Assembly: GCA_049322355.1 (NCBI GenBank)
Contig: JBMORG010000001.1
Span: 19,410 to 83,409, forward strand
Source of the DNA: Thermodesulfobacteriota bacterium
Lineage (GTDB): Bacteria > Desulfobacterota > Desulfobaccia > Desulfobaccales > 0-14-0-80-60-11
Length of the DNA stretch: 64,000 bases
Reading direction: 5' to 3'
The translations under genes were made by a program, and so were the position numbers. This document shows positions 4,156 to 54,500 of the stretch, one piece after another. Within the stretch, counting starts at the first letter, position 1; each line of letters begins with the position of its first letter. Under the pieces are notes generated by a model. The model ran no database searches. It had not been told where the DNA came from and saw nothing but the letters and a program-made list of their open reading frames with translations.

Positions 4156-4160
4156 AAACA

Positions 4161-5354: not shown

Positions 5355-5396
5355 GCGGTGGTTAAAAACCTATTTTAACAAATAAATTGGAATACA

Positions 5397-6644: not shown

Positions 6645-6654
6645 CGGTAATTGA

Positions 6655-7827: not shown

Positions 7828-7851
7828 TAAATTATTAAGGTTATTATCTCA

Positions 7852-10324: not shown

Positions 10325-10328
10325 CGTT

Positions 10329-11537: not shown

Positions 11538-12036
11538 TTGGCCCCTGCATTTCGTTTTACTTTTTACCAACTGGCTGCCTGATAATATTGTTTTTTTGCG
11601 GTTACGGGGATGGTTGGCCAGACCTTTTTTCAGGTCATGCGGCGCTGATTTACGCTTGGGGAGAAATGTGACTTTCTATAACTCCTCCAAGATTGATCTT
11701 GGACAAAATATTTATATTGCCTATGGGTGTTGGATAAGCGCAGGTGAAGAAATTTGCATTGAAGACGAAGTCATATTTGGTCCTTACTGCATTATAAGTT
11801 CAACCAATCACTCTCGGGCAAGAAGGTCTTTCCGGTATGGCCCCCCCAAACAAGAAGCAATAAGAATCGGCAAAGGAAGTTGGATAGCCTCCCATGTTAT
11901 TATCACTGCCGGCAGTGAAATCGGCCCTGGCTCCCTCATTGCTGCGGGGGCAGTAGTGAATGGAAAGATAGCCGCGGACTCCCTGGCAGGAGGCATACCG
12001 GCCAGGTTTTTAAAAGAACTTTCTGATGGCGAATGA
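11506..12036 (+). CDS. Hexapeptide-repeat (LbH) O-acetyltransferase
   Basis: Left-handed beta-helix repeats IRIGKGSWIASHVIITAGSEIGPGSLIAAGAVVNGKIAADSLAGGIPARF. Confidence 0.75.
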   Translation: MGKIARLVRHDWPLHFVLLFTNWLPDNIVFLRLRGWLARPFFRSCGADLRLGRNVTFYNSSKIDLGQNIYIAYGCWISAGEEICIEDEVIFGPYCIISSTNHSRARRSFRYGPPKQEAIRIGKGSWIASHVIITAGSEIGPGSLIAAGAVVNGKIAADSLAGGIPARFLKELSDGE

Positions 12037-14496: not shown

Positions 14497-14507
14497 AAAG
14501 AATCCAA

Positions 14508-15569: not shown

Positions 15570-15651
15570 TGACTTGGCACTCCCAGGATACAGATGCTGT
15601 ACGACAATTCCCTTGCTGAGTACCTATTATTTTGGCCTGATCAGAAAGTTG

Positions 15652-27881: not shown

Positions 27882-28124
27882 ATGAAACAAAATCGAAGTG
27901 CAAAGTTTCAGAACCCTAATGTTAATGCGCAGCTATTAAACATCGATGATGCTGCCGAACGCCTCAACATCTCCAGTCACACCGTAAGGGGGCTGGTGCG
28001 GCAAAGAAAGATCACCTTTGTTAAGCTTGGAGCCCGGGTATTATTTCGTCCCCAGGACCTGGAAGAGTTTATCAAATCCCATTTGGTCCCCGCCCAGGCC
28101 GGAGGCCAGGAGGAGACCCCGTGA
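27882..28124 (+). CDS. Excisionase-family helix-turn-helix DNA-binding protein
   Basis: LLNIDDAAERLNISSHTVRGLVRQRKITFVKLGARVLFRPQDLEEFI. Confidence 0.75.
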   Translation: MKQNRSAKFQNPNVNAQLLNIDDAAERLNISSHTVRGLVRQRKITFVKLGARVLFRPQDLEEFIKSHLVPAQAGGQEETP

Positions 28125-36971: not shown

Positions 36972-39494
36972 ATGAATGATTCCCCTTTTCTCGAACGTTT
37001 GGCTGACCGCCTTCGGGCAAGCGATTATAAAAGTCCTCGCTTCAAAGATAACGGCCAGTATATGTCCAATTTGATTTGTCCGGAATGCGGGGATCCCTCT
37101 GCCTGGGCGTATTCCAATGCGCCGTGGTCAATCAATTGTAACCGGCTTAATAAATGCGGCACCAGAACAAAGACCTTAGACCTTTTTCCCGAGCTAATCA
37201 GCAACGTTGAGAAGGAATACACCCCCGAGGACGAAAACCGGCCCGCAACGATCTACTTGCAAAGAAGAGGTCTGAATAAATCCTTGAAGGGGCTGAAATA
37301 CCGCTACATGGCCAACTTGCGAGGCCTCAGCGGCGGCGTTATGTTCCCGGTAGGCCAAGATGAGCATGGTCAGCCCATCTTTAATGGGCGGCTTTTCGAC
37401 CCTCCCCCGAAAGAGGCGAAAGGCCACAACATCGGTTCCACTTCCGGCATGTTTTGGAAACACCCTGGTATCACCTATCACCCAGAAGAGGAGACGTTTG
37501 TCACCGAAGGCATAATTGACGCCCTTTCCCTAATCGAAATCGATCGCCAGGCCATCGCTGTTCTCTCTTCTGGCCAGGACCCCACGAAACTGGACCTCGG
37601 GGAATTTTCCAAATTGGTAACCGCCTTCGATAAAGACGAGGCAGGGAAAAAAGCCGCACAACGCTGGCACAAGGCATTTAAAGGTAAAATTAAAACGATA
37701 ACTCCCATTAAAGGGGACTGGAATGATCTTTTGACCAGTCGGCCTAAAGAAGAGGCGAAGAAATACTTCGAAGAAAAGATAGAGGAATTTAGGGTCCGGG
37801 GAAAACTGGCACTCGCAAAAACCGCGGGAGAGTATGCCCAAATCTTCTGCGATTTTTACCGTCGCCTCCTCGGCCTATTTCCTTTTGAGAAGCAATACTA
37901 CTACTCACAGGAGAGGAATGGTCCTCATGGGCCTGTGCTAATAACCAATCGCGTCTCAAACTTCACGCTCGATGTTCGACACTTTCAGCTTGAAACCGTT
38001 AACCAGGAGGAGCCGGTCAATAGATTTTCCCTCGAAATTAAGCCGCGCAAAGGGCAATCGACAGCCTGTTCGGTTACTGCTGAGGAGATTGCATCGCCTC
38101 ACGGCCTGACGACCATGTTCCTCCAGCGCGCCAGGGTGCTATGGATGGGCGGCAAACCGGAATCGTTGGCCCTGGCTGAATTGATTGTCGAGTCCGGCGC
38201 TCCCGTTGTTCGGCAATTACAGGCAACTGGCTATGACTCGGAATCGGGATGCTATGTTTTCAAAACTTTCCTGATCACCCCCAAGGGGCAAATGCTGCTG
38301 CCTAACAACCACGGCTTTTTCGAGGCAACTCGTGCACTTTATATACGGCCTGCCCCTCACCCCACTTTGAGCCCGGTTAAGGGCATCGCACCCAAAGAAG
38401 TGTGGTGGTTGATTTCTCTGGCCTGGGGGGATAAGGGCGTGGTGGCCGTGGTGTGGGTAGTGGCGAGTTGGTTTGTGAATCAGATAAAGAAAAGAATCGG
38501 CTTCTTCCCGTTCGCATCATTACACAAGGACCCCCAAACTGGAAAAACCCGCCTTGTGAGGACCCTGAACGCAATGCAGGGTCTTGATGAAGAAGGTTTG
38601 CCGATGGTGAAGGTTAACACGAGTAAGGGCGAAGTCCGTCAACTGGCGCAACGGTCTGGCCTGTTCAAGGCCCTGCTGGAAGGCAACAACGCAGAAAAGA
38701 TGCGATTTGATATGGAGACGATCCTGCCCTTGTATAACTCGAACCCATTACAAATAACGGCCAAAAAAACACTCGACATCCAAACCAGGGATGTACCCTT
38801 CCTATCGTCACTCATGTTTGTCCAAAACGTAGAACAATTCAGGTCTCGGGCGCAGCGGGAACGAGTAATATCATTGAAATTCGAGAAAAAAGACCTCACT
38901 GTTGAAACTAAAAAGGCGCTGGATGACTTATTGAAAATACCATTGGCACAACTATCACATTTTTTCGTTGATGTAATGGCTCATCGAAACCAAATTGAGG
39001 ATGAATGGTATGACGAATTTAAACACTGCCAAGAAGAGTTATATGAGGCAATTCCTGATAACCGCCTGAATGAAAATTACGCTCTGATATTAGCATTTCA
39101 TCGGTTGTTATGCAAGATCATCGAAATTGAATATGATCTAAGGCCATATATTGAACAGCTTGGTAAAGAGAAGTATGAAGAATGTAACCGGAGAGATGAA
39201 ACAGTTGCTGATCACTTTTTTAACTTACTTCTTGGTCTCGATCACGATGAAAGGGACCAACAAGCATGTTATAGAACAATAGCAGAGAACAATCAGCTAT
39301 TTATTCATATAGGCAAGGCATTAAAGAGGATTGACGATGCTGGATACCGCTTTACCGTGCAACTGAAGGACCTGCATGCATCGTTAAAAGAGCACCCTTC
39401 CTTTATTAAGAGCAATGACGGTCGGCAGCTGGGTGGAACGTATCAAAAGGGTTGGCTCTTTGACTATGAAAAGATTGTCACTGATGAGGGGTAA
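36972..39494 (+). CDS. Toprim-domain DNA primase / replication initiator of element 2
   Basis: Zn ribbon CPECGDPSAWAY...CNRLNKCG. Toprim motifs FVTEGIIDALSL and VTAFDKDEAGKKAA. A large C-terminal domain of unknown type follows. The gene is immediately followed by iterons. Confidence 0.8.
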   Translation: MNDSPFLERLADRLRASDYKSPRFKDNGQYMSNLICPECGDPSAWAYSNAPWSINCNRLNKCGTRTKTLDLFPELISNVEKEYTPEDENRPATIYLQRRGLNKSLKGLKYRYMANLRGLSGGVMFPVGQDEHGQPIFNGRLFDPPPKEAKGHNIGSTSGMFWKHPGITYHPEEETFVTEGIIDALSLIEIDRQAIAVLSSGQDPTKLDLGEFSKLVTAFDKDEAGKKAAQRWHKAFKGKIKTITPIKGDWNDLLTSRPKEEAKKYFEEKIEEFRVRGKLALAKTAGEYAQIFCDFYRRLLGLFPFEKQYYYSQERNGPHGPVLITNRVSNFTLDVRHFQLETVNQEEPVNRFSLEIKPRKGQSTACSVTAEEIASPHGLTTMFLQRARVLWMGGKPESLALAELIVESGAPVVRQLQATGYDSESGCYVFKTFLITPKGQMLLPNNHGFFEATRALYIRPAPHPTLSPVKGIAPKEVWWLISLAWGDKGVVAVVWVVASWFVNQIKKRIGFFPFASLHKDPQTGKTRLVRTLNAMQGLDEEGLPMVKVNTSKGEVRQLAQRSGLFKALLEGNNAEKMRFDMETILPLYNSNPLQITAKKTLDIQTRDVPFLSSLMFVQNVEQFRSRAQRERVISLKFEKKDLTVETKKALDDLLKIPLAQLSHFFVDVMAHRNQIEDEWYDEFKHCQEELYEAIPDNRLNENYALILAFHRLLCKIIEIEYDLRPYIEQLGKEKYEECNRRDETVADHFFNLLLGLDHDERDQQACYRTIAENNQLFIHIGKALKRIDDAGYRFTVQLKDLHASLKEHPSFIKSNDGRQLGGTYQKGWLFDYEKIVTDEG

Positions 39495-41866: not shown

Positions 41867-42054
41867 GGAGGCCGCTTGGCAGCAATTCCACGACCATTAT
41901 CACGTGTTAATTAGCCACATCTCCCCTCATTCCAAATCCAACCTCATTTATCGTATTCCCACGGGATGCCGATAGCTTCACAAAACCATTTGACCTATTG
42001 TTGCAAATGGCAATATGATGAAAAACAGCTTATCACATCAATGAGGAAGACTGT

Positions 42055-43569
42055 ATGGATGTGACCCGTGCGAATGGTAGCAGCCTCACCCTGTCTCAAC
42101 TCGAATCGCACCTTTGGGAAGCAGCCAACATTCTGCGCGGACCGGTTGATGCCGCCGACTTCAAGACCTACGTTTTTCCCCTCCTCTTTTTTAAGCGCAT
42201 TTCTGACGTACACGATGAGGAGTACCAAGCGGCATTGTCTGAGTCGGGAGGGGACGAAGAGTATGCCAGGTTCCCTCAAAATTACCGCTTTCAAGTCCCA
42301 GAAGATTGTCATTGGCGCGATGTCCGGGCGGTGACGACCAATGTTGGTCAGGCCTTCCAAACTGCCATGCGTGGTATTGAAACCGCAAACCCGGAAACGC
42401 TTTATGCTATCTTCGGCGATGCCCAGTGGACGAACAAGGACCGTCTCTCTGACACGCTATTGCGTGACCTAATTGAGCATTTCTCCCGGATCAACTTGGG
42501 CAACGAAGCGGCGCAGGCCGACATCCTCGGACAGTCTTACGAATATCTCATAAAAAAGTTTGCTGATCTCACCAATAAGAAGGCAGGAGAGTTTTACACC
42601 CCGCGTTCGGTTGTCCGGCTAATGGTAAACATCCTTGATCCCCAAGAGAGTGAATCTATCTATGATCCCGCTTGTGGCACCGGAGGGATGCTATTAGAGG
42701 CGATACACCATGTTCGAGAGCACCACGGTGACGACCGTACTCTCTGGGGCAGGCTTTCGGGCCAGGAAAAGAATCTGACCACCGCCGCCATTGCCCGCAT
42801 GAATCTTTTTCTACATGGGGCTGCTGATTTCAATATCGTGCGCGGCGATACATTGCGAAATCCAGCTTTTTTTTCAGGCGATAATCTCGCCACTTTCGAC
42901 TGCGTCATCGCCAATCCGCCATTCTCCCTTGAAAAGTGGGGAGAGGAAGTCTGGGCCAGTGATCCCTTTGGTCGGAACTTCGCCGGCATGCCCCCGGCTA
43001 AGAGTGGCGACTTCGCCTGGGTCCAGCACATGATTAAATCCATGGCACCGAAAACTGGCCGCATGGCGGTAGTCCTGCCCCACGGGGTTCTGTTTCGCAT
43101 GGGGGCCGAAGGCAAGATTCGCCAAGAACTTCTCAACATGGACCTTCTCGAAGCCGTTATCGGCCTTGGACCAAATCTCTTTTATGGCACCGGCCTCGCA
43201 GCCTGCATTCTGGTCTTCCGCCGGCGTAAAGCACTGGAGCGCAAGAACAAGGTACATATCATTGACGCTTCTCGGGAGTTCAAGAAAGGCCGGGCCCAGA
43301 ACGAATTACTCCCGGAACACGTTGACCGCATTTATCGGTTGTACCAGGATTATGCCAATGTCGATGGGGTTGCCCGAGTGGTCAACCTGGAGGAGATCGC
43401 ATCAAACGATTACAACCTCAATATTCCCCGCTATGTTGAGCCCAAAGTGGAACACGAGGTGCTCACGGTGGAGGAGGCCAAGGGACATCTGCGGCTTAGC
43501 GCTGATGGGGCCTTTGAGGCAGAGGAAAAACTCATCAGCCTGCTCAAGAGCGAGGGGCTTCTGACTTAA
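42055..43569 (+). CDS. hsdM: Type I restriction-modification N6-adenine DNA methyltransferase subunit (free M subunit)
   Basis: HsdM N-terminal domain LESHLWEAANILRG. Motif I is YDPACGTGGML and motif IV is VIANPPFS. Confidence 0.9.
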   Translation: MDVTRANGSSLTLSQLESHLWEAANILRGPVDAADFKTYVFPLLFFKRISDVHDEEYQAALSESGGDEEYARFPQNYRFQVPEDCHWRDVRAVTTNVGQAFQTAMRGIETANPETLYAIFGDAQWTNKDRLSDTLLRDLIEHFSRINLGNEAAQADILGQSYEYLIKKFADLTNKKAGEFYTPRSVVRLMVNILDPQESESIYDPACGTGGMLLEAIHHVREHHGDDRTLWGRLSGQEKNLTTAAIARMNLFLHGAADFNIVRGDTLRNPAFFSGDNLATFDCVIANPPFSLEKWGEEVWASDPFGRNFAGMPPAKSGDFAWVQHMIKSMAPKTGRMAVVLPHGVLFRMGAEGKIRQELLNMDLLEAVIGLGPNLFYGTGLAACILVFRRRKALERKNKVHIIDASREFKKGRAQNELLPEHVDRIYRLYQDYANVDGVARVVNLEEIASNDYNLNIPRYVEPKVEHEVLTVEEAKGHLRLSADGAFEAEEKLISLLKSEGLLT

Positions 43570-43621: not shown

Positions 43622-45853
43622 ATGAGAGACGCACAAAAACCTGACCATATTAGCCTTAATACGCTTATTGGAAGACTCAAGGAAGGACGGTTCGTTATTC
43701 CAGACTTCCAGCGCGAATTTGAATGGCGCCCTTGGGACATCCGGGACTTGATGCGCTCCATTTTTCTCGACTATTACATCGGTAGTCTTCTCCTGTGGAA
43801 AGGCAAGAAAGAGAACTTCGCAGCTCTCTCGTGTCAAGCGATTCATGGGTTCGAGGGAGAAGAGAGACCCGAATCCATCGTGCTCGATGGCCAGCAGCGC
43901 CTCACTGCGATGTATTACGCCTTTCTCGCACCCGATGTTCCACTACCTCACCGGGCCAGTCGCGCCTTTTATTTCATCAATATTGAGAAATTCATGGCTG
44001 AGGTATACGACGAGGCCTTTGGCTACGATTGGCTTTCACGCCGATGGTTGAAAATCCTCGGTAACCGGGAGGCCCAATATGCGGACCATATCTTCCCTCT
44101 ATCGGTCGTAGGTGCAGGTGGGCGTGATCTGTGGAAATGGATAGATGGTTATGAGAAGTTTTGGCTTAGAAAAGCATCGGAAGCGGAATCCTCAGGCGAT
44201 ACAGCAAAATTCGTTGCCGCAACCCAGCATGCTGAAAATGCGATCGCCTTCGACGAACATCTCAGGGGGATCACTGAACAATACCAAATCTCTTACATAG
44301 AGCTGGATCAAGACCTCAGTATTGACAAGGTATGTGATATCTTCACGCAAATCAATAGCCGGGGTATTCGCCTCGACATTTTTGATCTCATGAATGCGCT
44401 ATTGAAGCCCAAAGACCTCAAACTCAAAAAAATGTGGCGTGACGCTGCTCCGCGTCTTGAGTTCGTCAATAGCGAGAAGATGAATGTCTATATCCTCCAA
44501 GTCATGTCCATCCTGAGACAAAATTACTGCTCGCCCAAGTACCTTTATTTTCTTCTCCCTGGTCAAGAGAAAACAGTCCGCAATCCGGATGGCACCCGCC
44601 AAAAGGAGATTCTGATCGCAGACATTGCCGAATTCGAGAGGCTTTGGAACCAAGCTGTCTCTTCCCTGGAAGCTGCCATCTATGTGTTGCGACAGCCCCA
44701 AGAATTTGGTGCCCTCTCCTCTGATTATTTGCCATATGTCTCCATCCTGCCAATTTTCGCCGCTCTTCAGGCTCACGTTAAAACGATTCCGGCAATGCGT
44801 CGCCTCGATGCCCAACGCAAGATTCGCCACTGGTATTGGGCCTCCGTCTTCAATAACCGCTATTCAGGCGCTGTAGAATCCACCAGCGCCCGTGATTTTC
44901 TTGACCTCAAGGCATGGATTGATGATGACGCCGCCGAACCGCCCTTAGTCTTTGAGTTTGCCAACACTTTCCGCAACCTGGATCTTCGCAAGGAAACCAA
45001 GCGCGGAACTTCGGTTTATAACGGAATATTTAATCTCTTGGTTCTTCAGGGCGCTCGGGATTGGATGAGCGGCACAGTCCCACAACATAACAATCTGGAT
45101 GATCACCATATTGTTCCCGCGTCCTGGGGCGCCAGAAATATCGAAGGTGGATTGGGTCACACAATCCTGAACCGGACGCCTTTGACGGCCGAAACCAACC
45201 GGCAGGTGATCCGCGACCGCCTGCCCAACGCCTACCTGCCGGAACTCATTGGGGCAAGCGGAGAAGGGACCGTTCGTGCCATCTTGGAGTCACACTTTAT
45301 TTCGCCTGCCGCATTCGCTATCCTACTGCGAAATCCCTTTGGTCCCGAAGATTTTCAATCCTTTATCTCTGAGCGCCAGAAGACGATCCTTGAAGCCATT
45401 GAAAACCTGCTTATAAAGGAACGGCTGGACTTACCACCGCAGCTTCGAGAGCTCGATGCGGCGATTGAGCAAATAGAGTTATCTATCCGTGAAGCAATCC
45501 AATCAACTCTCAACGGCGATATATCTCTTATCCCTTCCCATGTGCTCGTGAAAGTTGAAGAACGTATTTCACGGGCGACCAAAAAGACCGCGGCCCTCAA
45601 TGGGGATTATTATCAAACCTTGACCGGCAAGTTGGAATACTTTGATTTGCGAGAACTCCAAGACACCATCACCAACAGTTCTCTCTGGCCACATTTCCAA
45701 CCGCAATTCGTAAATAAAGAAACCTTTGTTAAAAAGTTCGACCAGCTCGGTGAACTGCGGAATGGCATTCGACACAGCCGGACGGTGGACGACATTACCC
45801 GGAAAGAGGGTGAAGCCTCAATACTCTGGTTTAAGCAAGTGCTTGGTAAATGA
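43622..45853 (+). CDS. DUF262 (ParB-like NTPase/nuclease) plus DUF1524 (His-Me/HNH-like) plus C-terminal HEPN-like domain protein
   Basis: DUF262 motifs FVIPDFQREFEW and LDGQQRLTAMY. DUF1524-like DDHHIVP...NRTPLTAETNR. The C-terminal ELRNGIRHSR is an Rx4H HEPN-type motif. The stop overlaps the next start (ATGA at 45850-45853). Confidence 0.75.
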   Translation: MRDAQKPDHISLNTLIGRLKEGRFVIPDFQREFEWRPWDIRDLMRSIFLDYYIGSLLLWKGKKENFAALSCQAIHGFEGEERPESIVLDGQQRLTAMYYAFLAPDVPLPHRASRAFYFINIEKFMAEVYDEAFGYDWLSRRWLKILGNREAQYADHIFPLSVVGAGGRDLWKWIDGYEKFWLRKASEAESSGDTAKFVAATQHAENAIAFDEHLRGITEQYQISYIELDQDLSIDKVCDIFTQINSRGIRLDIFDLMNALLKPKDLKLKKMWRDAAPRLEFVNSEKMNVYILQVMSILRQNYCSPKYLYFLLPGQEKTVRNPDGTRQKEILIADIAEFERLWNQAVSSLEAAIYVLRQPQEFGALSSDYLPYVSILPIFAALQAHVKTIPAMRRLDAQRKIRHWYWASVFNNRYSGAVESTSARDFLDLKAWIDDDAAEPPLVFEFANTFRNLDLRKETKRGTSVYNGIFNLLVLQGARDWMSGTVPQHNNLDDHHIVPASWGARNIEGGLGHTILNRTPLTAETNRQVIRDRLPNAYLPELIGASGEGTVRAILESHFISPAAFAILLRNPFGPEDFQSFISERQKTILEAIENLLIKERLDLPPQLRELDAAIEQIELSIREAIQSTLNGDISLIPSHVLVKVEERISRATKKTAALNGDYYQTLTGKLEYFDLRELQDTITNSSLWPHFQPQFVNKETFVKKFDQLGELRNGIRHSRTVDDITRKEGEASILWFKQVLGK

Positions 45854-48504
45854 CCCGCATTTCTCAGCAGCAACTGGAATCCTATCTCTGGGGCGCGGCC
45901 ACCCTCTTACGGGGGACCATTGACGCCGGAGACTACAAGCAGTTTATCTTCCCACTGCTGTTCTACAAACGGCTTTGCGACGTTTTCGATGAGGAGACCT
46001 TGTTGGCCCTGGCTGAGTCCGGAGGGGATGCCGACTTCGCCGCCTATCCGGAGAACCACCGGTTCCAGATCCCGGTTGAGGCCTATTGGCGAGAAGTGCG
46101 GCAAGTAGCCAGGGACGTGGGACGTACCCTGCAAAACGCCCTCCGGGCCATAGAAACCGCCAATCCTGATAAGCTCTACGGCATCTTCGGCGATGCCCAA
46201 TGGACCAACAAGGACCGCCTCCCCGACGCCATGCTACGGGACCTGATCGAGCACTTTTCCTCTCTCCATCTCACCCTGACCAACCTGCCGGAAGACGAGC
46301 TGGGCAACGGCTACGAATACCTCATCAAGAAGTTCGCCGACGACTCCGGTCACACTGCCGCCGAGTTCTACACCAACCGCACGCTGGTCCACCTTATGAC
46401 TGAAATGCTGGACGTGCAACCCGGGGAATCCGTCTACGACCCCACCTGCGGTTCCGGTGGCATGTTGCTTTCCTGCATTGCCCATCTGCGCCGGCAGAAT
46501 AAGGAGTGGCGAAACGTCCGCCTCTACGGGCAGGAGCGGAACCTTATGACTTCCGCCATCGCCCGGATGAACTGCTTCCTCCACGGCGTCGAGGACTTTC
46601 ACATCGTGCGCGGCGACACCCTGGCCTCGCCCAAGTTCGTGGAGGGTGACCGCCTCCGGCGCTTTGACGTGGTGCTGGCCAATCCGCCCTATTCCCTCAA
46701 GCAGTGGAACCGTAGCGCCTTCACCAATGATCCCTGGGGCCGCAACCTCTTCGGCACCCCGCCCCAGGGCCGGGCCGACTATGCCTTCTGGCAGCATATT
46801 ATCTGCAGCCTGGCGCCCCGGACTGGCCGCTGCGCCATCCTTTTTCCCCATGGCGTGCTCTTTCGCCAGGAAGAAGCGGACATGCGCTCCAAACTCATCG
46901 AGGCCGACCTCATCGAGTGCGTTCTGGGCCTGGGGCCGAACCTCTTCTACAACTCGCCCATGGAGGCCTGCGTTGTCGTCTGCCGGACGGCAAAACCCAA
47001 GGCCCGCAAAGGCAAGATCCTCTTCATCAACGCGGTCAACGACGTCACCCGGGAACGGGCCCAGAGTTTCCTTAATGATGCGCATATTCAGCGCATCCTC
47101 GCCATTTACCAGGCGTTCCAGGATGAGTCAGGTTTTGCCCGCGCGGTATCCATCGAAGAAATACGCTCCAAAGGCGGCAACCTGAGCATCCCGCTTTACG
47201 TCTCCGCACCAAAAGCTAACGGACAACTCCAGGTTTCGGCAAACGGCTCTTTGTCAGAATCGCTTACCGCGTGGCTGTCGTCAGCCCGCAACGCCCGAAG
47301 TGCTATTGCCGCCGTCCTTGAGTCTAAAGCGATCAAGGAAAATGACAGCTTAGCTGCCAAGCCGACCAATACATTGCCCGCATGGCTGAAACGGGATGAA
47401 TGGAAGAGGCTGCCGTTTAGCTGCTTCGCGGAGAACGTCAACCAGCGTGTCGAGCCCATCGAGGCGGGGGATGAAATTTACGTGGGATTGGAGCATCTCG
47501 ACTCAGAGAATCTGCATATACGGAGGTGGGGCAAAGGAAGCGATGTCATCGGCACCAAGTTAAGGTTCCGCAAGGGAGATCTGATTTTCGGCCGGCGCCG
47601 CGCTTACCAGCGCAAACTGGCGGTGGCCCAGTTCGACGGTATCTGCTCAGCGCACGCCATGGTGGTGCGCGCCAAGCCGGACGAGGTGCTGCCGGAGTTC
47701 TTGCCCTTCCTGATGATGAGCGACCGCTTCATGAATCGGGCGGTGGAGATTTCCGTCGGCTCACTCTCGCCCACCATCAATTGGAAGACCTTGAAGTTTG
47801 AAGAGTTCTCCCTCCCCCCACTGGACCAGCAGCGGCGCATTGCAGAAATTCTTTGGTCGGTGGATGAGGTGGAACAACGGTTGCAGCAACTAAATCAAGC
47901 TGTAGCCGGAGCCATGGATTCATGGTTGGACGAGCAGCTTTCTTATAACGTCCGTGAGATTAGAATCAATGATTTTGGCGAAGTAGTTACTGGAACTACA
48001 CCCAAAACATCTGGAAAGCATTTTTACGATCCCCCGGAACGCCTATTTGTTTCTCCTGCTGATATAACTGACTCTCGCTACGTGACGACAACGGAAAAAC
48101 GTGTTTCCCAAACTGGACTGGAATCGGGACGCCCAATTCCACGTGATGCTATCATGGTTGTCTGCATAGGTTCTACCATAGGTAAGGTCGCGATGGCCAG
48201 CGAGCTGTGCATCACGAACCAACAGATAAACTCAGTAATCTGCAACTCTGAATATCATCCTTTGGTTGTCTACCACTTATTGCGCCGCCAGCATAACTTG
48301 TTCCGGCAGACAGCAGGATGTACAGCACTTCCCATCCTTAACAAAGGCCAATTTGGGTCTCTACGGATTCGAGTCCCTAAACCTGGAAGGGACCAACAAA
48401 TCGCCAAAAAAATGATTGAGTTTGAACAAGCAGTCAATACGACCATAGAGGAATTAACCATCGCAAGAAACCTAAAAACCACAATGGTCAACTATCTATT
48501 ATGA
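45850..48504 (+). CDS. hsdM-hsdS: Type I R-M methyltransferase (second HsdM paralogue) fused in frame to a complete HsdS specificity subunit
   Basis: The N-terminal ~470 aa parallel the first HsdM (FGDAQWTNKDRL, LRDLIEHFS, YEYLIKKFAD, YDPTCGSGGML, VLANPPYS, GLGPNLFY). The C-terminal ~400 aa have two target-recognition-like regions separated by the conserved spacer LPPLDQQRRIAEILWSVDEVEQRL. The C-terminal helix is QQIAKKMIEFEQAVNTTIEEL. Confidence 0.8.
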   Translation: MTRISQQQLESYLWGAATLLRGTIDAGDYKQFIFPLLFYKRLCDVFDEETLLALAESGGDADFAAYPENHRFQIPVEAYWREVRQVARDVGRTLQNALRAIETANPDKLYGIFGDAQWTNKDRLPDAMLRDLIEHFSSLHLTLTNLPEDELGNGYEYLIKKFADDSGHTAAEFYTNRTLVHLMTEMLDVQPGESVYDPTCGSGGMLLSCIAHLRRQNKEWRNVRLYGQERNLMTSAIARMNCFLHGVEDFHIVRGDTLASPKFVEGDRLRRFDVVLANPPYSLKQWNRSAFTNDPWGRNLFGTPPQGRADYAFWQHIICSLAPRTGRCAILFPHGVLFRQEEADMRSKLIEADLIECVLGLGPNLFYNSPMEACVVVCRTAKPKARKGKILFINAVNDVTRERAQSFLNDAHIQRILAIYQAFQDESGFARAVSIEEIRSKGGNLSIPLYVSAPKANGQLQVSANGSLSESLTAWLSSARNARSAIAAVLESKAIKENDSLAAKPTNTLPAWLKRDEWKRLPFSCFAENVNQRVEPIEAGDEIYVGLEHLDSENLHIRRWGKGSDVIGTKLRFRKGDLIFGRRRAYQRKLAVAQFDGICSAHAMVVRAKPDEVLPEFLPFLMMSDRFMNRAVEISVGSLSPTINWKTLKFEEFSLPPLDQQRRIAEILWSVDEVEQRLQQLNQAVAGAMDSWLDEQLSYNVREIRINDFGEVVTGTTPKTSGKHFYDPPERLFVSPADITDSRYVTTTEKRVSQTGLESGRPIPRDAIMVVCIGSTIGKVAMASELCITNQQINSVICNSEYHPLVVYHLLRRQHNLFRQTAGCTALPILNKGQFGSLRIRVPKPGRDQQIAKKMIEFEQAVNTTIEELTIARNLKTTMVNYLL

Positions 48505-51476
48505 AAACCTTCACCGAATCCAACACCGTCGAACAGATGATCCTGGATGCCGCCACGTCGCCATTGGGCGCGGGCGAAGTCCGACAGGGCTATGCAGTAG
48601 ATTCGCTGGGCAGAGAGTTTCGACCGGCCCAGTGGAAGTACGTCCCTGCCACCGAACTCCCCCGCCAAAGCGCAGACGTCATGATCGAGACCTGGGTTCG
48701 AGAAGCGCTAATCAGGCTCAATCCCGAGATCGCTGCCCAGCCTGAACGGGCCGACGAGGTCATTTATAATCTGCGGGCCTGCATCCTCTCGGTGCAAGCC
48801 GATGGCATCGTGCGCGCCAACGAAAATTTCATGGCCTGGCTCCGGGGCGAAAAGACCATGCCCTTCGGGCCGGGTGGTGAACACGTCCCTATCCGTTTGG
48901 TAGATGCCGACCAGCCGGGCAACAACCGTCTTATCGTCACCAACCAATGGACATACCAAGCCGGACCGGTGGAGAAACGGTTCGATGTGGTCTTTGTGGT
49001 CAACGGCCTGCCCCTGGTCGTCGGCGAGGCTAAGACCCCTTCCCGCAGCGCGGTTACCTGGTTTGATGGCGCCTTTCAGATCAACCAGATCTATGAAAAA
49101 GAGGCGCCGGCCATGTTTGTTCCCAACGTCTTTTCCTTTGCCACCGAAGGCAAGCGCTACCGCTACGGCGCAGTGCGCATGCCTATCGACCTGTGGGGCC
49201 CCTGGCGGGATGAGGAAAACCAGGAGGAAGGGCAACTCCACCATGTCAAGGCTACGGTCCAGAGCATGCTCCGGCCCGAAGTGGTGCTGGACATCTCCCA
49301 GAACTTCACCCTGTTCGCCACCGATAAGAAACATCGCCGCATCAAAATCATCTGCCGTTACCAGCAGTATGAAACTGTCAATAAGATGGTGGCCCGGGTG
49401 GTGGCAGGCTACCCCAAGAAAGGCCTGATCTGGCATTTCCAGGGTAGCGGCAAATCCCTGCTCATGGTCTTTGCGGCTCAAAAGCTCCGGCTGCATGAGA
49501 AACTTCTTAATCCCACGGTAATCATCGTGGTGGACCGCATCGACCTGGACACCCAGATCACCGCCACTTTCAACGCCGCAGACGTGCCCAACATGGTGGG
49601 GGTGGCGACTCGCCAGGAGTTGCAGACTCTGCTGGGCCAGGACGTGCGTAAGGTGCTCATTACCACTATCCACAAATTCGCCGAGGCGGACGACAGACTG
49701 AATGAGCGGTCCAACATCATCGTGATGGTGGACGAAGCCCACCGCACCCAGGAAGGGGACCTGGGGCGCAAGATGCGCGCCGCGCTGCCCAATGCTTTCC
49801 TCTTTGGCCTCACCGGCACACCCATCAACAAGGCCGACCGGAACACCTTCTGGGCCTTCGGCGCCGACGAGGACGAGAAGGGCTATATGAGCCGCTACTC
49901 GTTTGAGGAATCCATCCGGGACCGGGCCACCCTGCCCCTGCATTTTGAGGCCCCGGAAGTCAAGCTGAAGATTAACAAGGCAGCCATTGACGAAGCCTAC
50001 GCCCAGCTTACCGACCAACTGAGTGAGCAGGATAAAGATGATCTGGCCAAACGAGCCGCCAAAATGGCCGTGTTGGTGAAAAACCCCGAGCGGGTGCGGG
50101 CCGTAGTCCAGCATATCGTCTCGCACTTCCAATCTAAAGTAGAGCCCAATGGTTTCAAAGCGCAGGTAGTGACCTTCGACCGGGAGTGCTGTGTCCTTTA
50201 TAAGCAGGTGATGGACGAGTTAATCGGCGAGGAAGCCAGCGCGATTGTTATGCATTACGCAGCGGGCGATCCCTCGGCATGGAAGCCGTATGCGCTCAAC
50301 CGTGATGAAGAAGAGAAATTGCTGGATCGGTTCCGGGACACGGCCGACCCGCTGAAGTTCGTCATTGTCACCTCAAAACTCCTGACAGGCTTCGACGCCC
50401 CCATCCTTCAGGCGATGTATCTCGACAAACCCATGAAGGACCATAACCTCCTGCAGGCCATCTGCCGGACCAACCGCACCTATGGCCAGACCAAGACCCA
50501 TGGCCTGATTGTGGACTATATAGGCATTTTTGACGATGTGGCCCGGGCCCTGGACTTTGACGAAAAGGCGGTCCAGAAGGTGGTGAGCAACATTGACGAA
50601 CTGCGTCAGGCGCTCCCAATGCAGATGCAGAAATGCCTCGCCTTTTTCGCCGGCGTAGATCGTACCGTAGGGGGTTATGAGGGCCTGATGGCCGCCCAGC
50701 AGTGCCTACCAAACAATGAGACCCGGGATAAATTTGCGGCTGAATTCTCGGTACTGGGCACCATTTGGGAGGCGCTCTCACCTGATCCGTGTCTGGGTCC
50801 TTATGAAAAGGATTACCGGTGGCTGACCCAGGTTTATGAATCGGTGAAGCCACCCAGCGGTAATGGCAAGCTACTCTGGCACGCCCTGGGGGCCAAGACG
50901 GTGGAGCTCATCAACCAGAACGTGCACGTGGAGTCTGTCCGTGACGACCTGGAGACGCTGGTGCTCAACGGCCAGGTATTGGAAGACTTCCTCAAGGATA
51001 TTGAACCGGGCAAAAGGGCGAAGGAAGTCGAGATTAAGCTGGTGGCCCGGTTGCGCAAGCATCTTGGCAACCCCAAATTTACCGCCCTGGGCGAGCGCCT
51101 GGAAAAGATCAAAGAGCGCCATGAACAGGGCCTTATTACCAGCCTGGAGTTCCTAAAGCAAATTCTCGAGCTGGCCAAAGATGTGGTTGAAGCCGAGAAG
51201 GAAACCGACCCCGAGGAGGAGCGGGATAAAGCCAAAGAGGCCCTTACTGAGCTGTTTAAGGAAGCTAAGGGGACAAACACCCATATTATCGTTGAACGTA
51301 TTGTGGCGGACATCGACGACATCGTGAAGAAGGTTCGTTTCCCCGACTGGCAGCGTACCACCCAGGGCGAACGCCTGGTACAAAAGGAACTGAGGAAGGT
51401 ATTGCTTAAGTACCAGCTTCATCGCGACCAGGAGCTTTTTGATAAGGCTTACGCTTACATAAGGCAATATTATTGA
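48501..51476 (+). CDS. hsdR: Type I restriction enzyme R subunit (SF2 translocase plus nuclease)
   Basis: FQGSGKSLLM (Walker A), MVDEAHRTQ (DEAH), LTGFDAP and QAICRTNR are present. The start overlaps the upstream stop (ATGA at 48501-48504). Confidence 0.9.
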   Translation: MKTFTESNTVEQMILDAATSPLGAGEVRQGYAVDSLGREFRPAQWKYVPATELPRQSADVMIETWVREALIRLNPEIAAQPERADEVIYNLRACILSVQADGIVRANENFMAWLRGEKTMPFGPGGEHVPIRLVDADQPGNNRLIVTNQWTYQAGPVEKRFDVVFVVNGLPLVVGEAKTPSRSAVTWFDGAFQINQIYEKEAPAMFVPNVFSFATEGKRYRYGAVRMPIDLWGPWRDEENQEEGQLHHVKATVQSMLRPEVVLDISQNFTLFATDKKHRRIKIICRYQQYETVNKMVARVVAGYPKKGLIWHFQGSGKSLLMVFAAQKLRLHEKLLNPTVIIVVDRIDLDTQITATFNAADVPNMVGVATRQELQTLLGQDVRKVLITTIHKFAEADDRLNERSNIIVMVDEAHRTQEGDLGRKMRAALPNAFLFGLTGTPINKADRNTFWAFGADEDEKGYMSRYSFEESIRDRATLPLHFEAPEVKLKINKAAIDEAYAQLTDQLSEQDKDDLAKRAAKMAVLVKNPERVRAVVQHIVSHFQSKVEPNGFKAQVVTFDRECCVLYKQVMDELIGEEASAIVMHYAAGDPSAWKPYALNRDEEEKLLDRFRDTADPLKFVIVTSKLLTGFDAPILQAMYLDKPMKDHNLLQAICRTNRTYGQTKTHGLIVDYIGIFDDVARALDFDEKAVQKVVSNIDELRQALPMQMQKCLAFFAGVDRTVGGYEGLMAAQQCLPNNETRDKFAAEFSVLGTIWEALSPDPCLGPYEKDYRWLTQVYESVKPPSGNGKLLWHALGAKTVELINQNVHVESVRDDLETLVLNGQVLEDFLKDIEPGKRAKEVEIKLVARLRKHLGNPKFTALGERLEKIKERHEQGLITSLEFLKQILELAKDVVEAEKETDPEEERDKAKEALTELFKEAKGTNTHIIVERIVADIDDIVKKVRFPDWQRTTQGERLVQKELRKVLLKYQLHRDQELFDKAYAYIRQYY

Positions 51477-51569: not shown

Positions 51570-54500
51570 GTGGCAAGTTCAATGACAGATGAGGAAAAGA
51601 GCCTATCCCTCCTGCGATTTCTGAAGGATGTAGTTTCCATCAGAAGGCAACGTCTGCCGCGTTATACCGACAACGATAAGCTTATATGGTTTACCAAGCT
51701 CCCTCGAGAACGCCAGGAATGCCGTTCCCCCCTTCTTTTTTGGGAATCAGAGGAGACGCCTGATTTTTGGTTAGAAGTTAAGAAGACCCGCCCGCCATTA
51801 CGAGCGTCCCTCCCCGGAGAACTTACTGATTGGATTGACTCCAAAGAATTGGAAGATGTAAACAAAGAACCTGAAATCCCCTCCTCCATTACTGTCTTTG
51901 TCGAACAGAACGTGCCGGACCCGGAAGCACCGCCAGGGCAACAACGTATTATTACGGAAAAAGTTCCAGTCCAGCACCACCTTGAGGATTACCCTAAGCT
52001 GCAAGAAGCATGGCTCAATTATCTTGTTAATGAATGGGAGCCATGGGCTGAGAAGAAACGTCGTTGGCAAGAAGTTCAAACTATTTATGAAGACGTTGAC
52101 TTCATGCGGCGGCGGCTGGAAGAATCTGAAGAGCGTTTTGAACTGTTTTTAGGCCTTGGATTACTTGTTTGGAAAGATTCTACGGAGAAACTAGTCCGAC
52201 GTCATCTTCTCACTGGACTTGCTGAAATAGACTTTGATGCTGCCCGTGGGATTCTCCGAGTTGTTCCGGCCGCTACTTTTGAGACATTCCGCATTGAAAT
52301 GGACATGCTTGAACTCCAGGATCGCCCACGGATTGACGAACAACAAATCCAAAAAAAACTTGAAGATTTAGATATCAATGCCTGGGATACATGCAAGGTA
52401 GGGGAAATCCTGCGTGAAATTGCCAATAGGGCTAAAGGAGACTCCCAGGTAGATGAGGATTCTTTTGAAATCCCGCGGCCTGGAGATAACACTCTTAGGG
52501 TTTCTTTTGCGCCAGCTTTTGTTTTACGTGAACGTCGTTTCACCGCACCGGAAGAGGTAATCGGGCGACTTTTGGATCGAATAAGCGACTCACCTAACGA
52601 AACCACTAAGCCCTGGGACCAATTTTTAGCCGAAGGAGTTTCAAATGATCAAGAGGTTAATAATGTTTTTGGAGAGAACACTATCACTTACCCCCAATCG
52701 GTTGAACGCATATTCTTTCCTCGGCCCACAAATGAGGAGCAGCGTCAAATAATTCATCGCCTTCAAGCCTCGTCATCCGTAGTGGTGAAAGGTCCACCAG
52801 GTACCGGGAAAAGCAATACCATAGCCAACCTTATAAGCCATCTTTTGGCTACTGGGGAACGGGTCCTGGTGACTGCCCAGGCACCTAAGGCGCTCGATGT
52901 CCTTCGGAACATGGTTCCCCGAGGTCTTCAGAACCTGTGTCTTACTGCATTGAGTTCCTCCAGAGAGGATCAACGCCTCTTGGAGGAAGGGGTTCGGGGT
53001 ATTGTTGGTCGAAAAAATGATTGGGAAACGGAAAAGGAGAACTGGCCTCACGAGATAACAGAACGAGATCTTCGATTAAACCATCTGGAAAAAGAACTGG
53101 CAAACACCGAGCGTCAATTGAGGGAATACCGTGAGGCTGAAACTTTCCCTCATATCTTGCCAGGTGGTTACGAGGGGACCGCAGCCCAAATCGCCAGACA
53201 ACTGGAGCAAGAGCGTGAAACCCTGGGGTGGTTCCCCGAAGTTGTTCAGAGCCAAAATAATTTTCCCTTATCTGAAGATGAATTACTACTCTTGGCTGAA
53301 ATGCATAGAAAATTAACTCCTGAGAACGAACAAGAGCTGGATTTGGAAACCGGAGATTTTGACCTCCTCAGCCCTTCGGATTTTTCACACGTTTTGACTG
53401 GCTTAGAGGAGGCAATTGAAAAGGCCGACACTGCCTCACAAAGTGCTGATCCCGACAAATTGGAAATTTTGAAAGATTCCGCTACCGAGACCATCAACAA
53501 GACAGCAATCACTCTTAAAACAATAGAAGAAAATTGGCTACGCTCTACCCGTGCCTTGGGGGAGATGGCTCATTCAGTATATGAAGATTTATTGGTGACC
53601 CATCGAAGCCATTGGAATCTTCTTTATCAACACACTAAGACAATCCTTGAGCAAATCGAAGTCAATCAGGAAAGACTTGCCGGGGCTGAAGTACATATCC
53701 CCCCAGAGTTGAGCCTTCCTCAGCTTTTAAGCGATACAGAGCGTCGCTTAGATCACCTTGTTAAGGGGGGTCGGATAGGCATATGGTTTTTTCAACCAAA
53801 AATCATCAGGGAGACCAATTATCTCGAAGAACAATGCCGAGTGAATGGTTGTCGACCGCAAGAGCAAGAGCATCTCGAAAGGATAATAGCCTGTCTACGT
53901 TTGCAAGCTAACATACAAGAATTCCAGGCACAATGGCCCCAACCCATCGATATTATGAATGGGGATAATATCCGGGCTGCCATGGCCGCCCGAGAGTTGG
54001 TGACCGAATTGGAACACATCCTGTCTCTGTTTGATGATTTCGGTAATGACGTCGTTCCATGTATACCGGTATCGTTTAGAGCCACTCTGGGTAGTCAAGC
54101 GCAACGGTTAATTTGGCTTAAAGCCATTGAAGCAGAACTTGCCCGCCGTGATCTTGAAACCCATCAGGAACCACTGTCTGATTGCCACCAGCAAATCCAG
54201 AGTTGCCTCAATAGTGGTAGGGCCCATCCATCCTTGTCCAGACTTGCTGAAGCCATATATGCTCACGACCGTGCAGCTTGGCATGGAGCTTGGGAACAGC
54301 GAGAAATTGTTAAGGAAAACCGCCTGCGCCTGAAAAAGTATCGTGAACTGATTAGTCGGCTCAGACCCCTTAGCCCCGGTTTGCCAGAGTTGTTACAGAC
54401 CCATCAAGGCGATCAAGAATGGACACCTCGGCTTTTGGCATTGGAGAAAGCCTGGCATTGGGCTTTAGCCTGCAACTGGATTGCGGCAACTTCAGACCCA

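What the first reader, a model, noticed from the sequence alone, without database searches (positions are those of the whole stretch)
43622..45853. DUF262-DUF1524-HEPN triple-nuclease gene embedded in, and translationally coupled to, the type I R-M operon
Seen in the sequence:
- A 743-aa ORF lies between the two hsdM genes.
- It carries DUF262 motifs (FVIPDFQREFEW, DGQQR), a DUF1524-type His-Me segment (DDHHIVP...NRTPLTAETNR) and a C-terminal Rx4H motif (ELRNGIRHSR).
- Its stop overlaps the hsdM-S start (ATGA), and hsdM-S overlaps hsdR in the same way.

Established knowledge: DUF262/DUF1524 is the GmrSD/SspE-type modification-dependent nuclease architecture. HEPN domains are RNases of abortive-infection systems. 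PrrC is a precedent for a suicide nuclease embedded in a type I hsd cassette and held in check by it.

Inference: this could be a PrrC-like second line that is guarded or activated by the R-M complex, combining DNA-targeting and RNA-targeting domains.
Basis: partly seen in the sequence, partly recalled or inferred. Interest (0 to 1): 0.65.

Follow-up and report, generated by a model that had tools for sequence, protein, structure and literature searches.

The report
GmrSD–HEPN defence nuclease inside R-M operon
A 743-residue bacterial immunity protein joins a BrxU/GmrSD-type DNA-cutting enzyme to a predicted RNA-cutting HEPN domain and sits inside a type I restriction-modification operon; both the architecture and this kind of nesting were already catalogued, and the gene behaves as an independent, widely travelling cassette rather than a PrrC-style captive of the restriction complex.

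Summary
ORF 43622..45853 (+) encodes 743 aa, carries every quoted motif, and overlaps the downstream hsdM::hsdS gene by ATGA; that gene overlaps hsdR the same way. DUF262 is unambiguous (Pfam E=1.9e-30). The His-Me/HNH nuclease misses Pfam DUF1524 directly. It is supported by a family-profile match to the Cas9 HNH domain, DUF1524 hits in relatives, a ββα element in a confident AlphaFold model, and BrxU as the only significant structural match. The C-terminal HEPN is supported by an invariant R-N-x3-H motif, canonical HEPN topology in the model and an above-threshold HEPN_Swt1 hit in a relative; Foldseek did not confirm it. "Triple nuclease" is a misnomer, since DUF262 is an NTPase/sensor in characterised relatives. 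The PrrC-like guard idea is not supported. Of 42 homologous loci with adequate flanks, 22 are type I-embedded, 6 sit in other helicase/methylase modules and 13 have no R-M neighbour. Contexts interleave on the protein tree. The protein stays 60–73% identical while adjacent Hsd proteins are 22–35% identical. ParB(DUF262)+HNH+HEPN fusions in R-M operons were catalogued in 2013, and GmrSD-like genes embedded in type I operons (TgvAB) work independently. Verdict: new member of a known kind, experimentally uncharacterised.

The parts
41990..42019 (+). Best sigma-70-like promoter match (TTGACC-18-TATGAT, 10/12) 36 nt upstream of hsdM1; candidate operon promoter
   Evidence: Consensus match only; the number of sites in the region is not above the shuffled expectation.
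42055..43569 (+). hsdM1, 504 aa, type I N6-adenine methyltransferase subunit (HsdM_N + N6_Mtase; NPPF and DPACGTGG motifs intact)
43622..45853 (+). Target gene T: 743-aa GmrSD/BrxU-family protein with a C-terminal HEPN domain
43622..44416 (+). T aa 1-265: DUF262/GmrSD_N ParB-like NTPase/sensor domain (QR at aa 30-31, DGQQR at aa 89-93 = nt 43886-43900, FxxxN at aa 241-245)
   Evidence: Pfam E=1.9e-30. The motifs are invariant in 57 diverse relatives. BrxU 7p9k matches by sequence.
44417..45061 (+). T aa 266-480: all-helical middle domain (the 'linker'/GmrSD-M type region)
   Evidence: AF2 model; Foldseek alignment to BrxU spans 663 columns; interpretation as a DNA-binding middle domain comes from PMC12065111.
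45062..45415 (+). T aa 481-598: His-Me (HNH/DUF1524-like) nuclease: β1 aa 492-496 ending in H495-H496 (nt 45104-45109), N517, β2 aa 518-522, helix aa 523-530 with N526
   Evidence: The family profile matches the Cas9 HNH domain 6o56 at E=2.9e-5. 6 of 57 relatives hit GmrSD_C and 1 hits HNH_4. N517 is invariant; P499, H495, H496 and N526 are invariant or nearly so. The ββα element is seen in the model.
45437..45850 (+). T aa 606-743: HEPN domain (Swt1-like/RiboL-PSP-like). R713-N-G-I-R-H718 (nt 45758-45775) lies at the end of helix 3; E619 and R623 in helix 1 are invariant
   Evidence: Foldseek gave no significant match.
45850..48504 (+). hsdM2::hsdS fusion, 884 aa (HsdM_N + N6_Mtase + two Methylase_S target-recognition domains); its start overlaps the T stop by 4 nt
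48501..51476 (+). hsdR, 991 aa (HSDR_N nuclease + SWI2/SNF2-type motor); its start overlaps the hsdM2::S stop by 4 nt

Best explanation
T is a self-contained, single-polypeptide member of the GmrSD/BrxU family of type IV (modification-dependent) restriction enzymes that has gained a C-terminal HEPN ribonuclease domain. It rides inside the type I R-M operon as a passenger, not as a subunit or captive of the Hsd complex. Proposed mechanism: the N-terminal ParB-like DUF262 NTPase and the helical middle domain recognise foreign, probably base-modified, DNA. NTP binding and hydrolysis then switch the protein's conformation or oligomeric state and license the His-Me nuclease (H496/N517/N526) to cut DNA. 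The HEPN domain (R713/N714/H718) would become active when two copies pair, as HEPN RNases generally require (own knowledge), and would cleave RNA as a second, possibly growth-arresting effector. Nesting between hsd genes gives co-transcription, translational coupling and co-transfer. It also gives complementary coverage: type I attacks unmodified DNA and T attacks DNA that escapes through modification. Shown here: the domain identities, conservation of catalytic-type residues, autonomy of the gene across contexts, and operon structure. Inferred from characterised relatives (BrxU, GmrSD, TgvB, SspE, HEC-06): NTP-gated DNase activity and modified-DNA specificity. Purely inferred: HEPN RNase activity and its timing.
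For: Family membership: GmrSD_N E=1.9e-30. BrxU is the only significant structural match to a pLDDT-88.8 model (E=7e-12, 663 columns). The family profile hits BrxU at E=1.8e-29, including its C-terminal region, and the Cas9 HNH domain at E=2.9e-5 across DDHHIxP…N…N. 6 of 57 relatives hit DUF1524. HEPN: R713 and H718 are invariant and N714 nearly so in all relatives that carry the module. The domain model (pLDDT 91) shows two α-hairpins with a helical insert between H2 and H3 and the motif at the end of H3, exactly as HEPN is defined. A relative scores 43 bits on HEPN_Swt1 against a cut-off of 27.5. The C-terminus matches PADLOC PDC-M34B at E=1.2e-7. Four HEPN-bearing relatives have lost the His-Me histidines but keep Rx4H, so the HEPN is under its own selection. 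Autonomy: of 42 loci with at least 3 kb on both flanks, 22 are type I, 6 are other helicase/MTase modules and 13 have no R-M neighbour. Contexts interleave on the tree. The 'none' neighbours are heterogeneous. T is 60-73% identical across loci while adjacent HsdM is 25-35% and HsdR 22-28%. GC3 of T is 0.54 against 0.68 and 0.72 for hsdM2::S and hsdR. Precedents: BrxU acts independently of BREX. TgvAB, a GmrSD-like system embedded in a type I operon, needs its own DGQQR and His-Me residues, and homologues of the pair occur about 17 times more often than the embedded five-gene arrangement. GmrSD-like genes are recurrent embedded passengers.
Confidence: 0.62

Rival explanations
1. PrrC/Ronin-like guard: T is held latent by the type I Hsd complex and is released or activated when a phage anti-restriction factor disables that complex, firing the HEPN RNase and/or the DNase as abortive infection.
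For: 52% of adequately flanked homologues are inside type I operons, frequently with 4-nt gene overlaps. PrrC's nuclease domain is itself classified as HEPN and is NTPase-regulated. Ronin shows that Hsd-sequestered effectors exist. In the window's own clade (L003, L004, L011) the whole operon is conserved together: M1 81%, M2 79%, T 70-73%.
Against: 31% of adequately flanked loci have no R-M gene within three genes, and their neighbours are heterogeneous. About 15% sit in non-type-I modules. Context switches repeatedly within clades. The host Hsd proteins are only 22-35% identical while T is 60-73% identical, which does not fit a specific co-evolving protein interface. PrrC and RonA are (almost) always hsd-linked. 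T has no ABC-ATPase domain. Embedded GmrSD relatives tested so far act on their own.
Confidence: 0.08
2. The HEPN domain is the principal effector and T is essentially an abortive-infection RNase. DUF262 and the middle domain sense phage DNA, and the His-Me domain is auxiliary, used for nicking or binding. This resembles the validated DUF262+HEPN system PD-T4-2.
For: Rx4H is retained in every HEPN-bearing relative, whereas four of about 23 have lost the His-Me histidines. PD-T4-2 combines DUF262 with a PF18735 HEPN without DUF1524 and protects against T4 natively. The window protein's best direct HEPN hit is that same Pfam family, PF18735.
Against: H495, H496, P499 and N526 are invariant or nearly so and N517 is invariant across the wider family, so the DNase is under strong selection in most members, including this one. 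No PADLOC PD-T4-2 model matches any part of T. Most of the family (570-600-aa relatives) works without any HEPN.
Confidence: 0.15
3. The C-terminal domain is a catalytically silent helical module (for dimerisation, RNA or nucleotide binding, or autoinhibition), and T is simply a type IV DNase with an extra regulatory tail.
For: Direct Pfam HEPN scores are sub-threshold. No structural match to solved HEPN RNases was found. Other relatives carry unrelated C-terminal modules at the same position, suggesting a swappable accessory. Inactive HEPN domains exist, for example eukaryotic Swt1.
Against: R713 and H718 are invariant and N714 nearly so down to 23-26% identity, and E619 and R623 are also invariant. 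That pattern is expected for a catalytic site and not for a scaffold. The 2013 survey scores the ParB+HNH-fused Swt1-like HEPN as 'active'.
Confidence: 0.12
4. T is a structural or enzymatic accessory of this particular two-hsdM type I system, for example an extra nuclease or loading factor needed by the M1 + M2::S + R enzyme.
For: T lies between the two hsdM paralogues and is translationally coupled to hsdM2::S. The M1–T–M2 order recurs in L004, L011, L016 and L040.
Against: The same protein occurs with single-hsdM systems, with non-type-I systems and alone. HsdR here has its own complete nuclease and motor domains.
Confidence: 0.03

Closest known systems
BrxU / GmrSD (HEC-05) single-chain type IV restriction enzymes (PDB 7P9K)
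   Same: N-terminal DUF262 with QR/DGQQR/FxxxN motifs, a helical middle region and a C-terminal His-Me nuclease. BrxU is the only significant structural match. Both are found embedded in larger defence operons.
   Different: T has about 145 extra C-terminal residues forming a HEPN domain. The catalytic box reads DHHIVP instead of DHIYP/EHxxP. Pfam DUF1524 does not detect it directly. Structural-alignment identity is only 17%. T's substrate is unknown.
ParB(DUF262)+HNH+Swt1-like HEPN fusions catalogued by Anantharaman et al. 2013 (e.g. VNG7073; also Abi2-type HEPN with ParB+HNH in Victivallis/Fusobacterium), PMC3710099
   Same: The same three-domain order and the same HEPN clade (Swt1/Abi2/RiboL-PSP). 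They are described as 'active', R-M-associated and predicted to be suicidal RNases backing up a DNase. A Victivallaceae homologue of T exists (L050).
   Different: I could not retrieve VNG7073 to test whether it belongs to the same protein family. That paper gives no census of contexts, no structure and no experiment.
TgvAB (Vibrio cholerae VPI-2), a GmrSD-like type IV system embedded in a type I R-M operon, PMC11411939
   Same: DUF262/DUF1524 genes nested between hsd genes. Defence needs the DGQQR and His-Me residues. Homologues occur both inside and (mostly) outside type I clusters.
   Different: TgvAB is a two-protein system without HEPN and is embedded in only about 6% of occurrences. T is one polypeptide with HEPN and is R-M-embedded in about two thirds of sampled loci.
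PD-T4-2 (E. coli ECOR65)
   Same: Combines a DUF262 domain with a PF18735 (RiboL-PSP-type) HEPN; validated anti-T4 defence.
   Different: It is reported as not associated with DUF1524. No PADLOC PD-T4-2 model matched T.
PrrC anticodon nuclease (EcoprrI locus)
   Same: An NTPase-regulated HEPN-class RNase encoded inside a type I hsd operon.
   Different: PrrC has an ABC-ATPase N-domain and no DNase, is almost exclusively type I-embedded and is physically masked by EcoprrI. T has none of these features.
PADLOC candidate PDC-M34B
   Same: The only defence-library model matching T's C-terminal domain (E=1.2e-7, aa 16-128 of the domain against positions 63-174 of a 192-position profile).
   Different: It is a stand-alone protein of about 190 aa from an untested multi-gene candidate, and its function is unknown.

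Membership tests
GmrSD family (type IV restriction; DUF262+DUF1524) | N-terminal DUF262 with the QR, DGQQR and FxxxN motifs | tested here: met
   PF03235 E=1.9e-30, aa 14-261. Q30-R31, D89-R93 and F241/N245 are present and invariant or nearly so in 57 relatives.
GmrSD family (type IV restriction; DUF262+DUF1524) | His-Me finger nuclease: His at the end of β1, Asn in the loop, Asn/His in the α-helix (ββα fold) | tested here: met
   Model: β1 492-496 (H495, H496), N517, β2 518-522, helix 523-530 (N526). The profile aligns these residues to the Cas9 HNH domain 6o56 at E=2.9e-5. N517 is invariant; P499, H495, H496 and N526 are invariant or nearly so.
GmrSD family (type IV restriction; DUF262+DUF1524) | Direct match to Pfam DUF1524/GmrSD_C (PF07510) | tested here: not met
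   No hit at E<=0.1 for the window protein. Only 6 of 57 relatives hit, best E=9.8e-5. The nuclease domain is a divergent HNH rather than a typical DUF1524.
GmrSD family (type IV restriction; DUF262+DUF1524) | Overall fold like the solved family members (BrxU, SspE) | tested here: met
   Foldseek: BrxU 7p9k/7p9m at E=7e-12 to 1e-10 over about 650-663 columns, with no other significant hit. The profile also reaches SspE 6jiv at E=0.0013.
GmrSD family (type IV restriction; DUF262+DUF1524) | NTP-stimulated cleavage of modified DNA; no activity on unmodified DNA | not testable with these tools
   Biochemical property; known for GmrSD and BrxU.
HEPN superfamily | Conserved Rx4-6H motif | tested here: met
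   R713-N-G-I-R-H718. R and H are invariant and N is at least 90% conserved in 23 C-terminal domains down to 23% identity. The motif is present in every relative that carries the module.
HEPN superfamily | Four-helix up-down bundle of two α-hairpins, insert between H2 and H3, motif at the end of H3 and start of the H3-H4 loop | tested here: met
   Domain model, pLDDT 91, pTM 0.84: H1 9-33, H2 42-58, helical insert 59-101, H3 102-120 with the motif at 116-121, H4 127-145. The definition is from PMC3710099. This is a predicted structure, not a solved one.
HEPN superfamily | Significant match to a curated HEPN profile | tested here: inconclusive
   Window domain: HEPN_RiboL-PSP E=1.1e-4, 22.6 bits, below the 28.4 cut-off. 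Aligned relative P0244: HEPN_Swt1 43 bits, above the 27.5 cut-off; P0131: 23.2 bits. 7 of 23 relatives hit RiboL-PSP and 4 of 23 hit Swt1.
HEPN superfamily | Structural similarity to a solved HEPN domain | tested here: inconclusive
HEPN superfamily | Metal-independent endoribonuclease activity | not testable with these tools
   Requires biochemistry.
PrrC/RloC anticodon nucleases | N-terminal ABC-ATPase-type NTPase fused to the HEPN ACNase domain | tested here: not met
   No ABC/AAA_13-type hit. The N-terminus is ParB-like DUF262.
PrrC/RloC anticodon nucleases | (Almost) exclusive embedding in type I hsd operons | tested here: not met
   22 of 42 adequately flanked homologues are type I-embedded and 13 of 42 have no R-M neighbour. 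PrrC is described as almost exclusively type I-embedded.
PrrC/RloC anticodon nucleases | Latency through physical association with the Hsd complex; activation by an anti-restriction factor (Stp) | not testable with these tools
   Indirect evidence is against it: host Hsd proteins are 22-35% identical while T is 60-73% identical.
Ronin (decoy hsdMS + RonA) | Small membrane effector always linked to hsdM/hsdS in a locus lacking hsdR | tested here: not met
   T is a 743-aa soluble multidomain enzyme, hsdR is present, and the linkage is not obligate.
PD-T4-2 | Match to PD-T4-2 component models; DUF262 + HEPN without DUF1524 | tested here: not met
   No PD-T4-2 model appears among the PADLOC hits for the whole protein or its three parts. 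T has a His-Me domain.

The most novel reading that the evidence does not exclude
T is a one-polypeptide 'echeloned' immune enzyme. A single ParB-like NTPase switch senses foreign DNA and gates two chemically different effectors: a His-Me DNase for direct restriction and a HEPN RNase for growth arrest. In addition, its preference for nesting in methylase/helicase operons reflects a real functional dependency, such as reading the host system's methylation state or its inhibition by DNA-mimic anti-restriction proteins, rather than mere co-transfer.
Probability: 0.1. Interest if true: 0.7.

Novelty: new member of a known kind. Interest (0 to 1): 0.35.

Why it matters
GmrSD-family enzymes are among the commonest type IV restriction systems, yet every characterised member (GmrSD, BrxU, SspE, TgvAB, HEC-06) has only a DNase effector. 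This HEPN-bearing branch is large: 2,847 homologues at E<=1e-3, spread over more than 15 bacterial phyla and methanogenic archaea. It is unusually conserved (59-76% identity across phyla and into methanogenic archaea) and has not been tested. It would be a clean model for asking whether one sensor can drive both DNA restriction and RNA-level abortive infection, the 'echeloned defence' idea proposed from genomics in 2013. For annotation, the result warns against reading physical nesting and translational coupling inside an hsd operon as evidence of PrrC-type guarding. The census here shows a promiscuous cassette that plugs into unrelated R-M backbones.

Tried and rejected
(1) Using the window's own HsdM/S/R as phmmer probes for context was too specific. 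I replaced it with iterated local HMMs plus Pfam annotation of neighbour clusters.
(3) A profile search of the PDB sequences with the C-terminal domain gave only coiled-coil noise.
(4) A 5.8-billion-protein search with the C-terminal profile was meant to find independently annotated HEPN relatives or stand-alone versions. It returned only unannotated short proteins, and two context look-ups showed these to be frameshifted or IS-disrupted copies of the full-length gene. I therefore rejected the idea of a natural split or stand-alone form.
(5) I looked for an N-terminal HEPN in the neighbouring 1,897-aa helicase-nuclease, as expected for the published MTES_1575 family, and found none at E<=1.
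(6) PD-T4-2 membership was rejected because no PADLOC model matched.
(7) T as a subunit of the type I enzyme was rejected because it occurs with unrelated systems and alone.
(8) No tRNA attachment site was found in the window, so the island borders remain undefined.
Full report
OBSERVATION. The window holds a plus-strand operon. Its genes are hsdM1 (42055..43569, 504 aa), a 52-nt gap, the target gene T (43622..45853, 743 aa), an hsdM2::hsdS fusion (45850..48504, 884 aa; N6_Mtase plus two target-recognition domains) and hsdR (48501..51476, 991 aa). The T stop and the hsdM2::S start share ATGA, and so do the hsdM2::S stop and the hsdR start. The gene is real. It is 100% identical to a deposited protein from a Thermodesulfobacteriota MAG, and it has 2,847 homologues at E<=1e-3. 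The 120 best listed are about 740 aa long and at least 71% identical.

DOMAINS.
(i) DUF262/GmrSD_N is unambiguous: Pfam E=1.9e-30 for aa 14-261. The three family motifs (QR, DGQQR, FxxxN) are invariant or nearly so in 57 diverse relatives.
(ii) Pfam DUF1524 does not hit the protein directly at E<=0.1. However, a profile built from 57 relatives matches the Cas9 HNH domain (6o56, E=2.9e-5). That alignment places H496, N517 and N526 on the HNH His…Asn…Asn positions. The same profile weakly matches the C-terminal nuclease region of BrxU. Six of the 57 relatives hit GmrSD_C and one hits HNH_4. An AlphaFold model (mean pLDDT 88.8) shows a ββα element: β1 at 492-496 ending in H495-H496, β2 at 518-522 and a helix at 523-530. 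The only significant structural neighbours of the full model are the BrxU chains 7p9k and 7p9m (E=7e-12, 663 aligned columns). Residues 1-600 are therefore a divergent GmrSD/BrxU-type enzyme.
"Triple nuclease" is inaccurate. In characterised relatives DUF262 is an NTPase/sensor that regulates the nuclease.

FAMILY STRUCTURE. An exhaustive search of 1.84 billion cluster representatives gave 5,826 relatives at E<=1e-3.
- Many are 570-600 aa, match only residues 1-597 and have no C-terminal module.
- Some are about 750 aa but diverge after residue 600, so they carry other C-terminal modules.
- Others carry N-terminal additions, including EVE, Schlafen/AlbA_2, Mrr_N, BpuJI_N, DUF4357 and DUF4268. 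By my own knowledge of these families, several are DNA- or modified-base-binding reader modules typical of type IV enzymes.
- Four HEPN-bearing relatives have lost the His-Me histidines yet keep Rx4H. This argues that the HEPN is selected as an effector in its own right.

CONTEXT CENSUS. A scan of one genome per species returned 79 loci from more than 15 bacterial phyla and from methanogenic archaea, at 59-76% full-length identity. I used rough gene calls, iterated HMMs for HsdM/S/R, and Pfam annotation of neighbour clusters. Of the 42 loci with an intact gene and at least 3 kb on both sides:
- 22 are in type I operons. The commonest order is M-T-S-R; M-S-T-R and R-M-S-T also occur.
- 6 are in other SNF2/PLD-helicase + N6_N4-methylase + UvrD/NERD modules.
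- 1 has only an R-like helicase.
- 13 have no R-M gene within three genes.
Neighbours in that last class are a mix of housekeeping genes and unrelated defence or mobile-element genes, with no recurrent partner. On a neighbour-joining tree of T proteins the three context classes are thoroughly interleaved.
Most telling is the conservation contrast. T stays 60-73% identical to the window copy across loci, whereas adjacent HsdM proteins are 25-35% identical and HsdR proteins 22-28% identical. The exception is the window's own small clade (L003, L004, L011), in which the whole two-hsdM operon is conserved. T also differs in codon-position composition from its downstream neighbours: GC3 is 0.54 against 0.68 and 0.72. 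T is therefore a conserved cassette that inserts into many unrelated R-M backbones and also lives alone. Decayed copies exist, either frameshifted or split by an IS element, as expected for a dispensable defence gene.

LITERATURE.
- The 2013 HEPN survey lists, under Swt1-like HEPN, a fusion to "ParB (DUF262) with HNH … (VNG7073), active". [quoted passage not shown] It proposes that a HEPN fused to R-M DNases acts as a suicidal RNase when DNA restriction fails (PMC3710099).
- TgvAB is a GmrSD-like system nested in the Vibrio cholerae type I operon. It restricts phages with hypermodified DNA through its own DGQQR and His-Me residues, and it is far more often found outside type I clusters (PMC11411939).
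- BrxU acts independently of BREX.
- GmrSD-like genes are recurrent "embedded" passengers of Hma, BREX, DISARM and type I systems, while PrrC is almost exclusively type I-embedded (bioRxiv 10.1101/2024.01.29.577857).
- RonA of Ronin is always hsdMS-linked.
- PD-T4-2 pairs DUF262 with a PF18735 HEPN and protects against T4. No PADLOC PD-T4-2 model matches T.
- I found no paper that tests a GmrSD-HEPN fusion experimentally.

MECHANISM. Best-supported (confidence about 0.6): T is an autonomous GmrSD/BrxU-type, NTP-gated, probably modification-dependent DNase with an added HEPN RNase as a second effector. It is nested in the type I operon for co-expression, co-transfer and complementary coverage. 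The domain identities, the residue conservation and the autonomy across contexts are shown here. DNase gating and modified-DNA specificity are inferred from relatives. RNase activity and its timing are inferred only.
Rivals:
- HEPN as the main abortive-infection effector, PD-T4-2-like (0.15).
- HEPN as a silent regulatory tail (0.12).
- A PrrC/Ronin-like guard of the Hsd complex (0.08).
- An accessory subunit of this type I enzyme (0.03).

VERDICT. This is a new member of an already catalogued kind. It is of moderate interest, mainly as an abundant, well-conserved and untested candidate for a single-protein DNA-plus-RNA defence.

Noticed in passing
window 42055-43569 and 45850-48504; L004, L011, L016, L040, L063, L078: Two paralogous hsdM genes (51% identical over 491 aa, both with intact catalytic motifs) flank T, and the second is fused to a full two-TRD hsdS. 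In other loci a short (~500 aa) M1-like gene upstream of T is always accompanied by an M2-like gene downstream; in L011 this is again an M::S fusion of 893 aa. Long (660-820 aa) upstream HsdMs are followed by S and R with no second M. This may be a type I variant whose M2S1 methylase is assembled from one free M and one M::S fusion.
   Followed up: partly
window 51570-57263 (+): 1,897-aa SF1-helicase (AAA_11/AAA_12) + MTES_1575/DUF559 Vsr-like endonuclease protein immediately after hsdR. It matches PADLOC PDC-S37, Hhe and Mokosh MkoA/MkoC models. Relatives sit next to T in L009, L024, L027 and L042. The N-terminal HEPN expected for the published MTES_1575 family was not detected.
   Followed up: partly
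window 57398-61171 (-): 1,256-aa reverse transcriptase-nitrilase protein matching Drt1a (defence-associated RT type 1) at 1,288 bits, so the type I operon lies in a multi-system defence island.
   Followed up: partly
window 28121-30826, 33728-34948, 36972-39494 (+): A tyrosine integrase (Arm-DNA-bind_3 + Phage_integrase) and two Toprim/DnaG-like primase-type proteins lie upstream of the operon, suggesting the island sits on an integrative element. No tRNA gene was found anywhere in the window, so the attachment site and borders are undefined.
   Followed up: partly
L015, L018, L024, L036 (~495-aa gene); L010, L018, L060 (268-276-aa gene): Other genes are co-embedded with T in type I operons. 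One is a Schlafen/AlbA_2 + HATPase_c_4 protein. In the three archaeal loci there is a Hypoth_Ymh (PF09509) protein directly downstream of T. One T-family HEPN domain gave a weak Hypoth_Ymh hit, hinting that Ymh may be HEPN-related.
   Followed up: no
P0130, P0159, P0170, P0220 (relatives of T): These HEPN-bearing relatives have replaced the His-Me 'DHH' box (for example VEVPVVP, VDLPIVP) but keep the Rx4H motif. They are natural variants in which only the HEPN effector looks active.
   Followed up: partly
P0132, P0135, P0139, P0147, P0186, P0193, P0199, P0204, P0223 and others: Relatives of T carry unrelated C-terminal modules in place of HEPN (recurrent 'F(Y/F)xR…N…QPL' and 'RGQYSE' type tails) and assorted N-terminal domains (EVE, AlbA_2, Mrr_N, BpuJI_N, DUF4357, DUF4268, RAMA). 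The DUF262-HNH core is therefore a chassis with swappable ends.
   Followed up: partly
L080-L082 (4352-6582), L083 (3705-6789), L075, L077-L079: Decayed copies of T: frameshift splitting it into 541 + 193 aa, an IS (DDE transposase) inserted in the middle, and multiply fragmented ORFs in several MAGs. Some may be long-read assembly errors rather than true pseudogenes.
   Followed up: partly
window 24-17598 (+): A long run of about 17 co-directional, tightly packed ORFs (150-700 aa) occupies the first 17.6 kb of the window. I did not annotate it.
   Followed up: no
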